Both the position numbers and the translations under genes were made by a program. Positions 10,715-19,608 of a stretch of DNA of 64,000 nt are shown piece after piece. This DNA is from an uncultured Bifidobacteriaceae bacterium (GTDB taxonomy: Bacteria > Verrucomicrobiota > Verrucomicrobiia > Limisphaerales > UBA11358), in assembly GCA_964532525.1 (NCBI GenBank), contig CAZHIM010000003.1, forward strand, positions 4,819-68,818, in the 5' to 3' direction. How positions within the stretch are numbered: position 1 is the stretch's first letter; each line of letters starts with the position of its first letter. The notes below the pieces were generated by a model that saw only the letters and a list, made by a program, of their open reading frames with translations, was not told where the DNA came from and did not search any database.

Positions 10715-11470
10715 ATGCTCACCGGCGTTGTGTTTGACATCAAAGAATTTGCCGTGCATGACGGGCCTGGTCTGCGGGTGACGGTATTCTTGAAAGGCTG
10801 CCCGTTGCGCTGTTCCTGGTGCCACAATCCGGAAGGGCAGTCGGCGGAACCGCAGAGGCTTCGCGGAGCCGCCGGTGAACGTCTGGCCGGGGTGACTTTC
10901 AGTTCGCGGGCATTGGCCGATCGCCTCAACAGTCTGGCGCCTTTGCTGCGTGTTGGGGAAGGGGGGGTGACTTTTTCGGGTGGCGAACCCCTGGCTCAAG
11001 CGGACTTTGTTTCGGAGGTGATTGAGCGGTTGGAGGGCCTCCATGTTTTGCTGGATACCTCTGGTTACGCCGACGAAAGCAGCTTCCGCAAGGTCGCCGC
11101 CAAATCACAGCTCGTGTACTTTGACTTGAAACTGATTGACGCCGCCGCGCATTTGAAACACACCGGAGCAGACAATCAGCCGATCCTGCGGAATCTCCGC
11201 GTCTTGAATGAGCTGGGTGTTCCATTTGTGGTTCGCGTGCCGCTGATTCCCGGAGTGACAGACACGGAGGCGAATTTGTCCGCGATTGCCCGGACGGTCG
11301 CGGGAATGCCTGGTTTGCAAAGAATAGATTTGCTTCCGTACAACAAAGCTGCCGGCGCCAAATACCCTGCTTGCGGCATGGTTTTTCGGCCAATGTTCGA
11401 TGAGTCACTCGAGTCAAAGGCCAATTTGTCCTGTTTCAAATCTGCCGGTCTGGAAGCGAGGATCGTATGA
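10715..11470 (+). CDS. Glycyl-radical enzyme activating enzyme (radical SAM, PflA-like short form, ~251 aa)
   Basis: ORF 10508..11470(+), start trimmed to ATG 10715 (MLTGVVFDIKEFAVHDGPGLRVTVFLKGCPLRCSWCHNPE, the CxxxCxxC triad). Also VTFSGGEPL. No additional Cys-rich ferredoxin-like insert. Its stop overlaps the GRE start (ATGA). Confidence 0.85.
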   Translation: MLTGVVFDIKEFAVHDGPGLRVTVFLKGCPLRCSWCHNPEGQSAEPQRLRGAAGERLAGVTFSSRALADRLNSLAPLLRVGEGGVTFSGGEPLAQADFVSEVIERLEGLHVLLDTSGYADESSFRKVAAKSQLVYFDLKLIDAAAHLKHTGADNQPILRNLRVLNELGVPFVVRVPLIPGVTDTEANLSAIARTVAGMPGLQRIDLLPYNKAAGAKYPACGMVFRPMFDESLESKANLSCFKSAGLEARIV

Positions 11471-17127: not shown

Positions 17128-19608
17128 ATGAGTGATCGAACCAGTTTGATAACAAGGGCAATCGTTTTGGCGGGAAGTCTCAGCGCGCTTACGGCGGCCG
17201 GTCAGGCACAAAGTGCCAGCCTCATTGTTGATGCCGGTCAAGTGCTTCACACAAACACGCCTTATCTGACCGGGGCGTGCCTTGAGGATGTGAACCACGA
17301 AATTTATGGCGGGATTGACAGCCAGATGATCTTTGGCGAGAGCTTTGCGGAACCCGCAGTGCAATTGCCGTTACGATCATTTAAAGCATACGAGGGCAGC
17401 TGGACGCCCCTGGGTGATGGCAGTGTTCAAGGAGTGGGCGGCGAGGGTGCAAAAATCATCTGGGATGGCCCCGGCTTTTCCACCGGGGAAGCCAGCGTGG
17501 ATGTCATGTTGACCGAAGCGGGTGGCGGTAACGGAGGTTTGATTTTCAAAGTCAAAGATCCCGGCAAGGGGGCGGATGCCTTCACCGGCTACGAAGTGTC
17601 GCTCGAAAGGCCCGGGTTTTTGGTGCTTGGACGCCATCGTCAGAACTGGGAACCGATCAAACGTGTTCCCTGCGACGTGCCGGTCCATCAGTGGATTAAC
17701 TTGGCCGTCCGTTGGGATGCAAAGTCAGTGGCAGTGTTCGTCAACGGCAAAAGCATCACGCGATATGAAGACGGCGAGCATCCGCTTGAGTCCGGGGCGG
17801 TGGGTTTGCGGGTCTGGCAGTGCAAGGTTTTATTCCGCAACTTTTCCGCCGGCAGGGCAGGGGTGGGGCAAATCATTCCGTTTGCCTGTGACTCCCGGAC
17901 TAATTTGGCCGGCGAGGTGAGTGGCATGTGGAATGCCATCCAACGGGGAACGGCGGCGGGCAAGTTTTCGCTGGAGAGTCAAACCGCATTTTCCGGCGGG
18001 CAAAGCCAGACTATTTCCTTCACGAGTGGCAGCGGGGAAGTGGGGATCGCGAATCAAAGTCTCAACCGTTGGGGCATGAATTTCGTCAAAGGCAAGCCAT
18101 ACGAGGGCTATCTTTGGGCGCGGGCCGAGTCGCCCACGGAAGCGTTCGTTGCGCTGGAAGGCAAGGATGGCGCAGTCTATGCGGAGAAATCCATGAAGCT
18201 GGAAGCCGGTGGCTGGCAGCGCCTTGACTTCAGGCTTGAGCCAAACGCGGCAGACATGGACGGCCAATTTGCGATCAAGCTCAAACAGCCTGGCACGATC
18301 GCGGTGGGTTACGCGTTTCTACAGGCCGGTTCGTGGGGGCGCTTCAAAGATTTGCCGGTGCGCAAGGATGTGGCCGGGGCGTTGATCGGCCAGGGAGTGA
18401 CGCTGCTGCGTTACGGTGGCAGCATGGTCAATAACCCCGAATATCGCTGGAAGAAAATGATCGGACCGCGCCCGCACCGCCCGCCGTATGCAGGGCATTG
18501 GCATCCGTATTCCTCCGATGGCTGGGGTATTTTTGATTTTCTGAACTTCTGCGAGGCCGCTGGATTCGTCGGCATTCCTGACCTCGACATTAATGAATCG
18601 CCGCAGGACATGGCTGATTTGATGGACTACCTCGACAGCGCTCCGAATAGCGAATGGGGGAGCAAACGCGCGGCTGACGGTCACGCTGCGCCATATCACT
18701 TGAAGTACATCGAGCTGGGCAACGAAGAACGCGTTGATGACAACTACTTTGAAAAGTTCAAAGCCATAGCGGAGGTGATCTGGGCGAAAGACCCTTCCCT
18801 CATTTTGATCGTGGGCGATTTTTCCTATCATCAGGTAATCACCGACCCGTTCAACTTCACCGGCGCAGACAGCGGCATCACAACCCTCGCTGCGCAGCGG
18901 AAGATTCTGGATTTGGCCAGACAAGACGATCGCGAAGTATGGTTTGACCTGCACGTTTGGACCGACGGTCCCCGGCCGGACAGCAGCCTGCCAGCGATGT
19001 TCTCCTATATTGACGCGATGGACAAAATTGCTGGCGGCGCGAAACACAGAGTGCTGGTTTTCGAGTTGAATGCCAACAACCACTCCCAGCGCCGGGCCTT
19101 GGCAAACGCGCTGGCTCTCAATGCGATCCAGCGGGATGGTCGCCTCCCGATTGTCTGTTCGGCAAATTGCCTCCAACCCGACGGCCAGAACGACAACGGC
19201 TGGGATCAGGGCTTGCTGTTCCTGAATCCATCGCAAGTCTGGCTACAACCGCCAGGTTTTGTAACCCAGATGATTTCGCGGAACTACGAGCCTCTGGTGG
19301 TGAAGAGTGAAAGTCTGGCGCGCGACCTCGACGTGAGCGCGACGAAGAGCGAGGACGGGAAAACGCTGGTGCTCCAAGTCGTGAACGTCGGAGGCGAAGC
19401 CCTGACGGTTCCACTGATAATCTCCGGCTTCGTTCCCGCAAAATCTGTGGCGCACGTGTTGGCGCTAAAAGGTCCCTTGGATGAGCAAAACACGGCAATG
19501 GCGATCGGGGGCATCAAACCAGTGGCGATTGAATGGAAACATGGTTTGGAAAATGGCAAAACCATGGTGACTTTTCCCGCGCACTCATTCACGGTCATCC
19601 GGCTATGA
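17128..19608 (+). CDS. Secreted GH51-like hydrolase, paralog of 13709..17101 without the C-terminal LamG/FYRI module, ~826 aa
   Basis: ORF 16936..19608(+), start trimmed to ATG 17128 (MSDRTSLITRAIVLAGSLSALTAAGQAQS signal). Colinear with its neighbour: GACLEDVNHEIYGGIDSQMIFGESFAEP, LRYGGSMVNNPEYRWKKMIGPR, YIELGNEE, VLVFELNANNHSQRRALANALALNAIQRDG. Confidence 0.6.
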   Translation: MSDRTSLITRAIVLAGSLSALTAAGQAQSASLIVDAGQVLHTNTPYLTGACLEDVNHEIYGGIDSQMIFGESFAEPAVQLPLRSFKAYEGSWTPLGDGSVQGVGGEGAKIIWDGPGFSTGEASVDVMLTEAGGGNGGLIFKVKDPGKGADAFTGYEVSLERPGFLVLGRHRQNWEPIKRVPCDVPVHQWINLAVRWDAKSVAVFVNGKSITRYEDGEHPLESGAVGLRVWQCKVLFRNFSAGRAGVGQIIPFACDSRTNLAGEVSGMWNAIQRGTAAGKFSLESQTAFSGGQSQTISFTSGSGEVGIANQSLNRWGMNFVKGKPYEGYLWARAESPTEAFVALEGKDGAVYAEKSMKLEAGGWQRLDFRLEPNAADMDGQFAIKLKQPGTIAVGYAFLQAGSWGRFKDLPVRKDVAGALIGQGVTLLRYGGSMVNNPEYRWKKMIGPRPHRPPYAGHWHPYSSDGWGIFDFLNFCEAAGFVGIPDLDINESPQDMADLMDYLDSAPNSEWGSKRAADGHAAPYHLKYIELGNEERVDDNYFEKFKAIAEVIWAKDPSLILIVGDFSYHQVITDPFNFTGADSGITTLAAQRKILDLARQDDREVWFDLHVWTDGPRPDSSLPAMFSYIDAMDKIAGGAKHRVLVFELNANNHSQRRALANALALNAIQRDGRLPIVCSANCLQPDGQNDNGWDQGLLFLNPSQVWLQPPGFVTQMISRNYEPLVVKSESLARDLDVSATKSEDGKTLVLQVVNVGGEALTVPLIISGFVPAKSVAHVLALKGPLDEQNTAMAIGGIKPVAIEWKHGLENGKTMVTFPAHSFTVIRL

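What the first reader, a model, noticed from the sequence alone, without database searches (positions are those of the whole stretch)
10715..19608. Oxygen-sensitive radical enzyme pair packed in one apparent operon with two signal-peptide GH51-like hydrolases
Four same-strand genes are separated by an ATGA overlap (11467-11470), a 4-nt gap (13705-13708) and a 26-nt gap (17102-17127). No terminator-like structure was noticed between them. A cytoplasmic GRE system co-transcribed with two secreted or surface hydrolases is an unusual pairing. It implies that the GRE acts on a product released by those hydrolases, under anoxic conditions. I know of no described GRE pathway organised this way.
Basis: inference. 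Interest (0 to 1): 0.65.

Follow-up and report, generated by a model that had tools for sequence, protein, structure and literature searches.

The report
Radical enzyme cassette in arabinofuranosidase locus
An oxygen-sensitive radical enzyme and its activator sit tightly packed with two secreted, arabinofuranosidase-like plant-glycan hydrolases, and relatives in several bacterial phyla keep this pairing; the enzyme belongs to a widespread, uncharacterised family that probably does an oxygen-free step on a sugar freed from plant cell walls.

Summary
Four + strand genes (activase 10715-11470, GRE 11467-13704, hydrolases 13709-17101 and 17128-19608) are joined by an ATGA overlap, a 4-nt gap and a 26-nt gap, with no terminator-like structure between them.

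The GRE has the Gly-radical motif (G707) and a Cys-x-Glu loop (C386/E388). It is only 21-25% identical to every solved GRE and falls far below all curated equivalog cut-offs.

Both hydrolases carry signal peptides and model as distant GH51 enzymes.

The linkage is conserved:
- 14-15 of 80 related genome loci (Verrucomicrobiota, Planctomycetota, one Anaerolineae) keep a GH51-like gene next to AE-GRE, often with a GH127 beta-L-arabinofuranosidase and an AraG-like ABC importer.
- In Anaerolineae the same cassette lies between corrinoid methyltransferases and araA-araB-araD.
- The cassette is optional: most GH51-like homologues lack it.

The window has lost the ABC importer by a ~3.5-kb deletion.

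Best reading: an anoxia-only accessory module doing radical C-O cleavage on an arabinose-series sugar or derivative. The substrate is unknown. I found no description of this arrangement in the searchable literature. I rate it a new variant of a known kind, interest 0.66.

The parts
4353..5765 (-). XylR-type sugar regulator (periplasmic-binding-protein fold plus AraC HTH), transcribed divergently from the locus
   Evidence: Pfam Peripla_BP_3 1.3e-44, HTH_AraC, PBP1_XylR. A 66%-identical homologue sits at the same divergent position in L002.
6026..10354 (+). Large surface or secreted protein with four LamG (Laminin_G_3) domains and Ig-like domains; first gene of the same-strand string
   Evidence: Pfam Laminin_G_3 6e-67 in 4 stretches, plus Big_2 and Big-like. 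Homologues open the locus in L001, L161, L085 and L120.
10493..10705 (+). Remnant (first ~71 codons, degenerate Walker A) of an AraG-like ABC ATPase gene. It marks a ~3.5-kb deletion that removed the ATPase, permease and binding-protein genes.
   Evidence: tblastn gives 69% identity to residues 1-71 of the L001 ATPase. In blastn, window 10416-10705 matches L001 5409-5700 and then window 10712 jumps to L001 9246. Intact versions are in L088, L118, L108 and L161. The best NCBIfam match of the ATPase is AraG, 546 bits, below the 689-bit cut-off.
10715..11470 (+). GRE-activating radical-SAM enzyme, 251 aa, with the radical-SAM domain only (CPLRCSWC cluster motif, no ferredoxin-like insert)
   Evidence: TIGR02494 199 bits against a 174-bit cut-off; Radical_SAM and Fer4_12. 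The sequence has only 5 Cys. The match to ~300-aa activase models is split in two, with the insert missing.
11467..13704 (+). Glycyl radical enzyme, 745 aa, of an uncharacterised Cys-x-Glu clade (C386-W-E388; RVWG707)
   Evidence: PFL-like 1.3e-94 and Gly_radical 5.8e-18. All NCBIfam equivalogs are far below cut-off. The Cys loop and Gly loop align to GD, PflD and CutC. The AF2 model has pTM 0.86; Foldseek gives TM ~0.8 at 21-25% identity to GD, PD, CutC, PflD, YbiW and HypD alike.
13709..17101 (+). Secreted GH51-like hydrolase A, 1130 aa: signal peptide, DUF1080 insert, beta-sandwich, (beta/alpha)8 domain, C-terminal sandwich, LamG domain
   Evidence: Pfam 3keto-disac_hyd, ASD1_dom, Alpha-L-AF_C (just below cut-off) and Laminin_G_3. 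The ortholog in L088 has the same length and 79% identity, with dN/dS 0.15. LGNEE and VFELNANN motifs are present.
17128..19608 (+). Secreted GH51-like hydrolase B, 826 aa: signal peptide, DUF1080 insert, beta-sandwich, (beta/alpha)8 domain, C-terminal sandwich
   Evidence: Pfam. The AF2 model has pLDDT 83. The top 46 Foldseek PDB hits are all GH51 arabinofuranosidases; the best is 6zps, E 1e-30, TM-score 0.69 normalised to the target length. G531-N532-E533 and F645-E646 are invariant in 46 homologues. The sequence alignment to Thermotoga GH51 ends at E533 against chain residue 172.

Best explanation
The four genes are the distal part of a glycan-utilisation locus for arabinofuranoside-rich plant cell-wall material. 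AE-GRE is an optional two-gene cassette in that locus that works only without oxygen.

Proposed sequence of events:
1. The two signal-peptide GH51-like enzymes act outside the cytoplasm and release an L-arabinose-series monosaccharide. In relatives a secreted GH127 beta-L-arabinofuranosidase acts with them.
2. In relatives an AraG-like CUT2 ABC importer takes the sugar up. That importer has been deleted here, so uptake must use another transporter.
3. In the cytoplasm the activase uses its single [4Fe-4S] cluster and SAM to place a radical on Gly707 of the GRE.
4. The radical passes to Cys386. The thiyl radical abstracts H from a hydroxyl-bearing carbon of the imported sugar or a near derivative (polyol, ketose or lactone made by the Zn-ADH and GFO oxidoreductases that accompany the cassette in relatives).
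5. Glu388 deprotonates that hydroxyl, and the neighbouring C-O bond breaks, as loss of water or as ring or ether opening.
6. Cys386 returns the H, leaving a deoxy-keto product that enters fermentation.

Shown here: gene order and spacing, family membership and catalytic motifs, the GH51 fold, conservation of the linkage, the arabinose-series context, and purifying selection.

Inferred: co-transcription, the identity of the sugar, the exact bond broken, and the fate of the product.
For: Anatomy.

No terminators.

Catalytic residues:
- The GRE's C386-W-E388 and RVWG707 align to the catalytic Cys, Glu and Gly of GD, PflD and CutC.
- C386, W387, E388 and G707 are invariant in 42 family members, together with many polar residues (N135, H237, Q287, Q288, N291, Q293, N478, N479, H483, R572).

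Conserved linkage (tally, supported):
- The activase is adjacent in 74 of 80 loci.
- A GH51-like gene lies within 10 kb in 14 of the 80 loci (15 counting L001, where the gene starts at the contig end). Thirteen of the 14 are among the 28 Verrucomicrobiota, Planctomycetota and L010 loci, and one is the Anaerolineae locus L066.
- GH127 is present in 11 loci.
- L088 reproduces the window's AE-GRE-GH(1130 aa)-GH(832 aa) string, preceded by an intact ABC importer.
- Independent gene calls in L161 give the same order.
- GH51-like-linked GREs fall in at least four separate clades of an unsupported, midpoint-rooted neighbour-joining tree.

Arabinose theme:
- GH_B has the GH51 fold.
- GH127 matches Pfam at 2e-79.
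- The ABC ATPase is closest to AraG, below the cut-off.
- A true araA (836 bits against a 622-bit cut-off) lies directly downstream of the GRE in 11 Anaerolineae loci, followed by araB and araD.

Other support:
- Purifying selection acts on all four genes.
- AE and GRE are 58-64% identical between phyla while the flanking transporter and ADH are 23-29% identical, so the pair behaves as one conserved functional cassette.
- Sugar-acting Cys-x-Glu GREs have a precedent in YbiW and PflD (PMC13450708).
Against: - No experiment or transcript data are available.
- The coupling is facultative. Of 23 metagenome GH51-like loci with at least 8 kb of upstream sequence, 19 lack the GRE, and L120 and L083 lack it within an otherwise identical locus.
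- Most GRE loci have no GH51-like gene.
- A 1,2-elimination product is a deoxy-keto compound. It cannot itself be L-arabinose or L-ribulose, so the araA/B/D neighbours in Anaerolineae do not follow simply from the GRE reaction.
- The three URO-D methyltransferases plus corrinoid protein in those loci are not explained.
- The binding proteins of the two main contexts are not orthologous (23% identity), so the imported molecules may differ.
- The window copy has lost its importer.
- The substrate cannot be read from sequence: the GRE is equidistant from all solved relatives.
Confidence: 0.5

Rival explanations
1. The GRE is a radical ether or glycoside lyase. It would not attack the free sugar. 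It would attack a small, non-hydrolysable arabinose conjugate left after the hydrolases have trimmed the polymer. Candidates are Araf-beta-O-hydroxyproline from extensins, a lignin-carbohydrate benzyl ether, or a methoxylated phenolic arabinoside. The enzyme would abstract H next to the substituted carbon of the aglycone and expel the sugar oxygen as the leaving group. That releases free L-arabinose, which goes to araA/B/D, plus a carbonyl compound.
For: - It explains why araA-araB-araD follow the GRE directly in Anaerolineae loci that encode no hydrolase.
- It explains why canonical aryl-methyl-ether-type URO-D methyltransferases, a corrinoid protein and, in 5 loci, a GDSL-motif esterase-like gene precede it (the GDSL reading is mine).
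- It explains why GH127 (the Hyp-arabinoside enzyme family), an alpha-galactosidase-like gene (c16) and an M24 peptidase turn up in different contexts.
- The chemistry parallels CutC, IslA, HypD and YbiW, where an N, S or ring-O group leaves from the carbon next to the radical.
Against: - It is entirely inferential, and no such GRE reaction is known.
- The transporters are CUT2, MFS or RhaT types typical of monosaccharides.
- The Verrucomicrobiota and Planctomycetota loci have no methyltransferase, esterase or peptidase.
- The GRE is no closer to HypD than to the other solved GREs.
Confidence: 0.15
2. The GRE is a small-diol dehydratase (1,2-propanediol, glycerol or ethylene glycol) that serves as a fermentative electron sink. 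In this genome it would consume 1,2-propanediol made by the neighbouring fucose and microcompartment system. Its position next to hydrolases would reflect only a shared sugar-fermentation regulon.
For: - The best sequence and fold hits include B12-independent glycerol and propanediol dehydratases.
- The window carries FucI, an MFS transporter, LutABC and a complete PVM-type microcompartment locus 0.3-18 kb downstream.
- A Zn-ADH accompanies the cassette in many relatives.
Against: - The general-acid His of GD and PD (His164/His166) is an invariant Asn135 in this family, and GD Tyr640 aligns to Gly576.
- Scores to GD and PD are no better than to CutC or PflD.
- None of the 160 related loci (L001-L160) contains BMC shell, PduL, aldehyde dehydrogenase or FucI homologues.
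- The araA/B/D pathway produces no diol.
Confidence: 0.1
3. There is no functional coupling. AE-GRE would be a horizontally mobile two-gene cassette that happens to insert into sugar loci, and it would act on a metabolite unrelated to the hydrolase products.
For: - The cassette is far more conserved than its flanks.
- Its presence or absence varies among close relatives.
- It has diverse contexts outside the three main types.
- GH51-like genes mostly occur without it.
Against: - Adjacency to GH51-like genes recurs in different orders and orientations and in at least four clades of an unsupported, midpoint-rooted neighbour-joining tree.
- Almost every context is carbohydrate- or polyol-related: LacI or XylR regulators, sugar transporters, GH families, araA/B/D, and GFO, ADH, SDR and AKR oxidoreductases.
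- Start-stop overlaps and spacers of 4-50 nt are maintained.
Confidence: 0.1
4. The GRE is a pyruvate formate-lyase, as most source annotations say ('formate C-acetyltransferase').
For: Source annotations from JGI and NCBI.
Against: - The PFL equivalog TIGR01255 scores 45 bits against a 994-bit cut-off.
- The Cys loop is A385-C386-W-E388, not the Cys-Cys pair of PFL.
- PFL is the weakest PDB match (E 8e-12).
Confidence: 0.01

Closest known systems
YbiW and PflD, the GRE C-O lyases ('isomerases') of anhydroglycolysis (1,5-anhydroglucitol-6-P and 1,5-anhydromannitol-6-P to 1-deoxyfructose-6-P)
   Same: Both are Cys-x-Glu GREs that act on a carbohydrate and are encoded in sugar-uptake loci. The fold is comparable (TM ~0.8), and they are among the best sequence hits (E 1e-65 by phmmer, 1.7e-92 by profile) (PMC13450708).
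   Different: - Identity is only 24-25%.
- NCBIfam PRK09983 scores 258 bits against a 1109-bit cut-off.
- No PTS, kinase or F6P-aldolase neighbours are present.
- The partner here is an ABC importer plus secreted hydrolases.
- The Cys loop reads C-W-E rather than C-V-E.
- The enzyme is shorter (745 against 765-810 aa).
B12-independent glycerol and 1,2-propanediol dehydratases (GD, PD), and the fucose/rhamnose GRE microcompartments
   Same: They give the top sequence and fold hits. They share the Cys-x-Glu loop and a dedicated activase, and they are linked to sugar fermentation.
   Different: - The catalytic His is replaced by an invariant Asn135.
- There is no microcompartment association in 160 related loci.
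- The activase lacks the ferredoxin-like domain that the review says almost all non-PFL activases have.
HypD together with the Bifidobacterium GH127/GH121 system for hydroxyproline-linked beta-L-arabinooligosaccharides
   Same: GH127 beta-L-arabinofuranosidase genes sit next to the cassette in 11 loci. HypD is a Cys-x-Glu GRE whose substrate is the aglycone of those glycans. That last point is from my own knowledge and is only a lead.
   Different: - The HypD equivalog scores 238 bits against an 1100-bit cut-off.
- No known organism joins HypD to GH127 in one operon, to my knowledge.
- The transporters here are of sugar type.
Classical arabinan and arabinoxylan utilisation loci (GH51 AbfA with AraFGH and araBAD)
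   Same: Both have a GH51-fold hydrolase, an AraG-like ABC ATPase, a sugar-responsive regulator and, in Anaerolineae, araA/B/D.
   Different: - The hydrolases are 15-19% identical to solved GH51 enzymes, carry an inserted DUF1080 domain and are secreted.
- The Verrucomicrobiota and Planctomycetota loci have a Zn-ADH and a GFO oxidoreductase in place of araBAD.
- A radical enzyme is embedded in the locus, which no described arabinose locus has.

Membership tests
Glycyl radical enzyme superfamily (PFL-like division) | PFL-like barrel domain plus C-terminal glycyl-radical domain with the RVxG motif | tested here: met
   PF02901 1.3e-94 and PF01228 5.8e-18. RVWG707 is invariant. The AF2 model superposes on GREs at TM ~0.8.
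Glycyl radical enzyme superfamily (PFL-like division) | Catalytic Cys on the Cys loop, aligned with the Cys of solved GREs | tested here: met
   C386 aligns with the catalytic Cys in the Cys loop of GD (GCVE) and PflD and is invariant.
Glycyl radical enzyme superfamily (PFL-like division) | Adjacent dedicated radical-SAM activase with a CX3CX2C motif | tested here: met
   TIGR02494 scores above its cut-off. The C29-x3-C33-x2-C36 motif is present. The activase is adjacent in 74 of 80 related loci.
Glycyl radical enzyme superfamily (PFL-like division) | Formation of an oxygen-sensitive glycyl radical | not testable with these tools
   This needs anaerobic reconstitution and EPR.
GRE 1,2-eliminases and isomerases (Cys-x-Glu class) | Cys-x-Glu motif on the Cys loop | tested here: met
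   C386-W387-E388 is invariant. The motif is defined in PMC13450708.
Any characterised GRE function (PFL, GD/PD, CutC, HypD, HpsG/HpfG, IslA, YbiW/PflD, decarboxylases, X-succinate synthases) | Score above the curated NCBIfam equivalog cut-off | tested here: not met
   The best equivalog is PRK09983 at 258 bits against 1109. The TIGR01774 subfamily scores 300 against 678. Identity to all solved GREs is 18-25%, and 21-25% to the Cys-x-Glu eliminases and isomerases.
B12-independent diol dehydratases (GD, PD) | General-acid His (GD His164, PD His166) in the VGHV motif | tested here: not met
   The position aligns to the ISN135I motif. Asn135 is invariant in 42 members.
Glycoside hydrolase family 51 | (beta/alpha)8 catalytic domain with a C-terminal beta-sandwich, most similar to GH51 structures | tested here: met
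   The top 46 Foldseek PDB hits are all GH51 (E 1e-30 to 3e-15). The next family (GH44) is at 9e-12.
Glycoside hydrolase family 51 | Sequence-level membership (Pfam and NCBIfam thresholds) | tested here: inconclusive
   ASD1_dom is above its cut-off but matches only positions 97-181 of 239. Alpha-L-AF_C scores 26.2 and 22.7 bits against a 27-bit cut-off. ArfA scores 59 bits against 625. This is a distant GH51 or a sister family.
Glycoside hydrolase family 51 | Catalytic Glu pair (acid/base in the GNE motif, plus the nucleophile) | tested here: inconclusive
   G531-N532-E533 and F645-E646 are invariant. The alignment to Thermotoga GH51 ends with E533 opposite chain residue 172. I recall that residue as the acid/base, but I did not verify this. 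The nucleophile was assigned from the motif only.
Glycoside hydrolase family 51 | alpha-L-Arabinofuranosidase activity | not testable with these tools
   This needs an enzyme assay.
Operon (single transcription unit) | One transcript spanning 10715-19608 | not testable with these tools
   Only indirect evidence is available: the overlap and short gaps, the absence of terminators, and conserved spacing.

The most novel reading that the evidence does not exclude
The AE-GRE cassette encodes a reaction class not yet known for glycyl radical enzymes: radical cleavage of a non-hydrolysable arabinosyl ether or glycoside, such as hydroxyproline-O-arabinoside or a lignin-carbohydrate ether. The reaction would release free L-arabinose. 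In Anaerolineae it would be coupled to corrinoid-dependent O-demethylation. Anaerobes in peat, soil and groundwater would then have an oxygen-free route into plant cell-wall conjugates that hydrolases cannot open.
Probability: 0.12. Interest if true: 0.9.

Novelty: new variant of a known kind. Interest (0 to 1): 0.66.

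Why it matters
Glycyl radical enzymes are how strict anaerobes carry out chemistry that aerobes do with oxygen. Each newly assigned clade has opened a new pathway: choline, hydroxyproline, sulfonates and anhydro-sugars.

This clade is widespread. Relatives were found at 304 loci in species-representative genomes, nearly all of them metagenome-assembled genomes from peat, fen, soil, groundwater and digesters. It is highly conserved across phyla and has no assigned function. It is consistently embedded in plant-glycan and arabinose loci.

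If it acts on an arabinose-series compound, it would define an unknown anaerobic branch of hemicellulose or pectin carbon flow in peat and soils. Those systems matter for carbon storage and methane.

It also offers two enzymological oddities. It is a Cys-x-Glu GRE served by a PFL-type activase that has the radical-SAM domain only. It also has a Cys-Trp-Glu loop with Asn in place of the dehydratase His.

The finding turns a vague annotation ('formate C-acetyltransferase') into a short, testable substrate list.

Tried and rejected
- PFL annotation: rejected.
- Canonical diol dehydratase: unlikely, because His is replaced by Asn135 and there is no microcompartment link.
- Fucoidan or fucose link suggested by the downstream FucI, LutABC and PVM microcompartment genes: these are specific to this genome and absent from the 160 related loci L001-L160.
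- Substrate from binding-protein similarity: PDB hits to the two binding proteins are weak and generic CUT2 sugar binders.
- Substrate from the accompanying ADH and GFO: only weak threonine/sorbitol-dehydrogenase-like and inositol-dehydrogenase-like matches.
- Fold search of the GRE model: equidistant from GD, PD, CutC, PflD, YbiW and HypD, so uninformative for the substrate.
- Uronate decarboxylation (D-galacturonate to L-arabinose), methyl-ether elimination, inositol, apiose and levoglucosan ideas: considered from context, but none has specific support and each leaves part of the context unexplained.
- Exact-sequence look-up of the window GRE for its sample of origin: found nothing.
- Literature searches for GRE combined with arabinose, arabinofuranosidase, methylated sugar, or Anaerolineae and corrinoid: nothing relevant.
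- The single-linkage cluster 'GH51L' was contaminated by LamG-only and GH127 proteins. The tallies were therefore redone with tblastn length filters.

Full report
**1. The observation**

The region holds four + strand ORFs:
- activase (AE), 10715-11470;
- glycyl radical enzyme (GRE), 11467-13704;
- hydrolase GH_A, 13709-17101;
- hydrolase GH_B, 17128-19608.

- ATGA at 11467-11470;
- stop at 13702-13704, spacer ACAA, then ATG at 13709;
- TAG at 17099-17101, a 26-nt spacer, then ATG at 17128.

The consensus scan puts no terminator-like site at any junction, and overall counts equal the shuffle expectation. The GH_A/GH_B spacer has no structure (-2.2 kcal/mol, weaker than shuffles). One promoter-like match straddles the GRE/GH_A junction. 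Such matches occur at the chance rate, and its -10 box lies past the GH_A start codon.

**2. The proteins**

Activase:
- It is a bona fide GRE activase (TIGR02494 above its cut-off).
- It has only the CX3CX2C cluster and five Cys in all.
- It matches ~300-aa activase models in two pieces, so the ferredoxin-like insert is missing.
- The 2026 review PMC13450708 says almost all GRE activases have that insert, and that only the PFL and class III RNR activases consist of the radical-SAM domain alone.

GRE:
- It has PFL-like and Gly_radical domains, RVWG707 and a C386-W-E388 loop.
- These align with the catalytic Gly, Cys and Glu of glycerol dehydratase, PflD and CutC.
- It is far below every curated NCBIfam cut-off.
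- Its AF2 model (pTM 0.86) matches GD, PD, CutC, PflD, YbiW and HypD equally, at TM ~0.8 and 21-25% identity.
- It is not a PFL: there is no Cys-Cys pair, and TIGR01255 scores 45 bits against 994.
- It is not a canonical diol dehydratase. The general-acid His of GD and PD is Asn135, which is invariant in 42 family members.

Hydrolases:
- Each has a signal peptide (by inspection).
- Each carries an inserted DUF1080 domain and weak GH51 matches.
- The AF2 model of GH_B (pLDDT 83) has GH51 arabinofuranosidases as its top 46 PDB neighbours. The best is the fungal MgGH51, at E 1e-30.
- The GNE and FE motifs are invariant.
- 'GH51-like' is therefore right at fold level. At sequence level this is a distant GH51 or a sister family (15-19% identity).

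**3. The larger locus, and a deletion**

Upstream lie a divergent XylR-type regulator (4353-5765) and a 1442-aa LamG/Ig protein (6026-10354).

Between that protein and the activase, 10493-10705 encodes the first ~71 residues of an AraG-like ABC ATPase. DNA alignment shows a clean ~3.5-kb deletion relative to L001, L118 and L108.

Intact relatives (L088, L118, L108, and L161 with independent gene calls and Pfam) read: LamG protein, prepilin-like N_methyl protein, Zn-ADH, GFO oxidoreductase, ABC ATPase, permease, binding protein, AE, GRE, then the hydrolases. L088 even has the same 1130-aa and 832-aa hydrolase pair.

All four window genes are under purifying selection against L088 (dN/dS 0.13-0.16).

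**4. Is the linkage conserved?**

The GRE family is 62-87% identical to the window protein. It turned up at 304 loci in species-representative genomes. The 80 best are all metagenome-assembled genomes or uncultured-bacterium assemblies. They come from Verrucomicrobiota, Planctomycetota, Chloroflexota (Anaerolineae), Acidobacteriota, Lentisphaerae, Kiritimatiellota, Treponemataceae and Alphaproteobacteria. Their record titles name peat, bog, fen, groundwater, lake and digester samples.

Tallies over the 80 loci:

| Feature | Loci |
|---|---|
| AE adjacent to the GRE | 74 of 80 |
| GH_B homologue within 10 kb | 14 (15 counting L001, where it starts at the contig end) |
| ... of these, among the 28 Verrucomicrobiota, Planctomycetota and L010 loci | 13 |
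| ... of these, in Anaerolineae (L066, order reversed) | 1 |
| GH127 beta-L-arabinofuranosidase (Pfam 2e-79) | 11 |
| URO-D methyltransferases, among the 39 Chloroflexi loci | 27 |
| True araA, among the 39 Chloroflexi loci | 13 (directly downstream of the GRE in 11) |

- GH127 often sits between the GRE and the GH51-like gene.
- The GH51-like-linked GREs fall in at least four separate clades of an NJ tree, which is midpoint-rooted and has no support values.
- In the Chloroflexi loci the URO-D methyltransferases come with a corrinoid protein upstream of the GRE. There araA (836 bits against a 622-bit cut-off) is followed by a Zn-ADH, araB and araD.
- A third context pairs the cassette with a secreted melibiase-like protein and an MFS transporter.
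- Other contexts carry GFO, xylose-isomerase-like TIM-barrel, SDR and AKR oxidoreductases.

**5. The coupling is facultative**

- Starting from GH_B, 570 metagenome stretches encode relatives. Of the 80 best loci, 7 carry the GRE. Of the 23 with at least 8 kb of upstream sequence, 4 do.
- L120 has the binding-protein gene followed after 45 nt by the GH_A ortholog, with no AE-GRE. L083 keeps only the first ~135 nt of the AE gene.
- AE and GRE are 58-64% identical between Verrucomicrobia and Chloroflexi, while the flanking transporter parts and ADH are 23-29% identical.
- AE-GRE therefore behaves as a conserved, probably horizontally moving, two-gene cassette plugged into non-orthologous sugar loci.

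**6. What it most likely does**

The common thread across contexts is the arabinose (and galactose-like) series:
- the GH51 fold;
- GH127;
- melibiase-like and GH42-like genes;
- an AraG-like ABC importer;
- araA/B/D;
- a GalK-like kinase (my reading of the sequence).

The Cys-x-Glu loop places the enzyme with the eliminases and isomerases. In those enzymes a thiyl radical abstracts H from a carbinol carbon, the Glu deprotonates the OH, and the neighbouring C-O, C-N or C-S bond breaks (PMC13450708). YbiW and PflD show that sugars can be such substrates.

I therefore commit to this reading (confidence 0.5):
1. Secreted hydrolases free an arabinose-series sugar.
2. The sugar is imported. Here that must be by a transporter other than the deleted ABC system.
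3. Without oxygen, the GRE carries out a radical C-O cleavage on that sugar or on a close redox derivative, giving a deoxy-keto product.

Gene order, motifs, folds, conservation and selection are shown. Co-transcription, the substrate, the bond broken and the fate of the product are inferred.

**7. What this does not explain**

- A 1,2-elimination product cannot be arabinose or ribulose, so the araA/B/D genes after the GRE in Anaerolineae are not a simple continuation.
- The corrinoid methyltransferase set is unexplained.
- This keeps alive a more novel rival, in which the GRE cleaves a non-hydrolysable arabinosyl ether or glycoside and releases arabinose (0.15).
- A small-diol dehydratase (0.10) is weakened by Asn135 and by the lack of any microcompartment or fucose genes in the 160 related loci L001-L160. 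This is so even though the window itself carries FucI, LutABC and a PVM-type microcompartment downstream.
- Pure hitch-hiking (0.10) is weakened by the recurrence of the adjacency and by the near-universal carbohydrate context.

**8. Comparison with what is known, and novelty**

The closest known systems are:
- YbiW and PflD of anhydroglycolysis;
- GD and PD;
- HypD with the bifidobacterial GH127 system;
- classical GH51/AraFGH/araBAD loci.

The enzyme is a member of the GRE superfamily and of the Cys-x-Glu class, but of no characterised function (see the membership tests). The 2026 review and five literature searches show no description of a GRE embedded with secreted glycoside hydrolases or arabinose genes. 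I rate it a new variant of a known kind, with interest 0.66. It is a widespread, unassigned GRE clade with a concrete and testable ecological and biochemical hypothesis, but its function is not yet known.

Noticed in passing
window 10493-10705: An in-frame remnant of an AraG-like ABC ATPase gene is fused upstream of the activase ORF. It marks a ~3.5-kb deletion of the ATPase, permease and binding-protein genes relative to L001, L088 and L118.
   Followed up: yes
window 19880-37492: A separate L-fucose/rhamnose-type system lies here. It comprises AraC, FucI, an MFS transporter and LutABC, followed by a complete PVM-type bacterial microcompartment locus. That locus holds a tandem-domain BMC shell protein, an RnfC-like protein, DeoR, PduL, three single-domain BMC shell proteins, acetate kinase, three EutN/CcmL-type shell proteins, aldehyde dehydrogenase and a class II aldolase. 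None of these genes accompanies the GRE family in 160 related loci.
   Followed up: partly
window 27770-28057: A ParE-family toxin gene lies between the Lut genes and the microcompartment locus. No antitoxin was looked for.
   Followed up: no
window 37788-62323: More glycan-degradation genes follow: a LamG/BACON/fn3 protein, three sulfatases (41035, 43672, 57805), a prepilin-like N_methyl protein (42686), a Y_Y_Y-type histidine kinase (48556) with a LuxR-type response regulator (57081), a PATR-repeat protein (51986) and a GtaA-like six-hairpin protein (59639). Sulfated glycans are probably also used by this organism.
   Followed up: no
L012-L075 (Anaerolineae loci, e.g. L026:5181-15945): Three URO-D-family methyltransferases, a corrinoid protein, AE-GRE, araA, a Zn-ADH, araB and araD lie in one same-strand string behind a sugar ABC importer. 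Five loci add a GDSL-motif esterase-like gene, and some add an M24 peptidase or a GH42. A corrinoid demethylase set inside a sugar locus is unexplained.
   Followed up: partly
window 10715-11470 and homologues: The activase has only the radical-SAM domain, with no ferredoxin-like two-cluster insert. The 2026 review says only the PFL and class III RNR activases are built this way, so it is unusual for a Cys-x-Glu GRE.
   Followed up: partly
L088 compared with L026: AE and GRE are 58% and 64% identical between Verrucomicrobia and Chloroflexi. The neighbouring binding protein, permease, ATPase and ADH are 23-29% identical. The cassette appears to move horizontally as a unit.
   Followed up: yes
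L083:1137-2153 and L120:4462-5811: Close relatives of the window locus lack AE-GRE. L083 retains only the first ~135 nt of the activase gene. L120 goes from the binding-protein gene to the GH_A ortholog in 45 nt.
   Followed up: yes
L009 (Thermoguttaceae), downstream of the activase: Three tandem copies of a gene pair (104-123 aa plus 468 aa) lie just past the activase. Their nature is unknown.
   Followed up: no
L161:12199-15949: In this close relative the GH51-like gene after the GRE is called as several fragments (a DUF1080 piece and an ASD1 piece). A HAD-hydrolase/LamG gene overlaps the GRE stop. This may be decay or sequencing frameshifts.
   Followed up: no
window 10305-10332: A hairpin followed by a T-run (TCCCCGTGACTGTGGGGA ATCAGTTTTT) lies just inside the 3' end of the LamG gene. 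It is the only terminator-like site near the start of the AE-GRE-hydrolase string. Terminator-like sites occur at the chance rate overall.
   Followed up: partly
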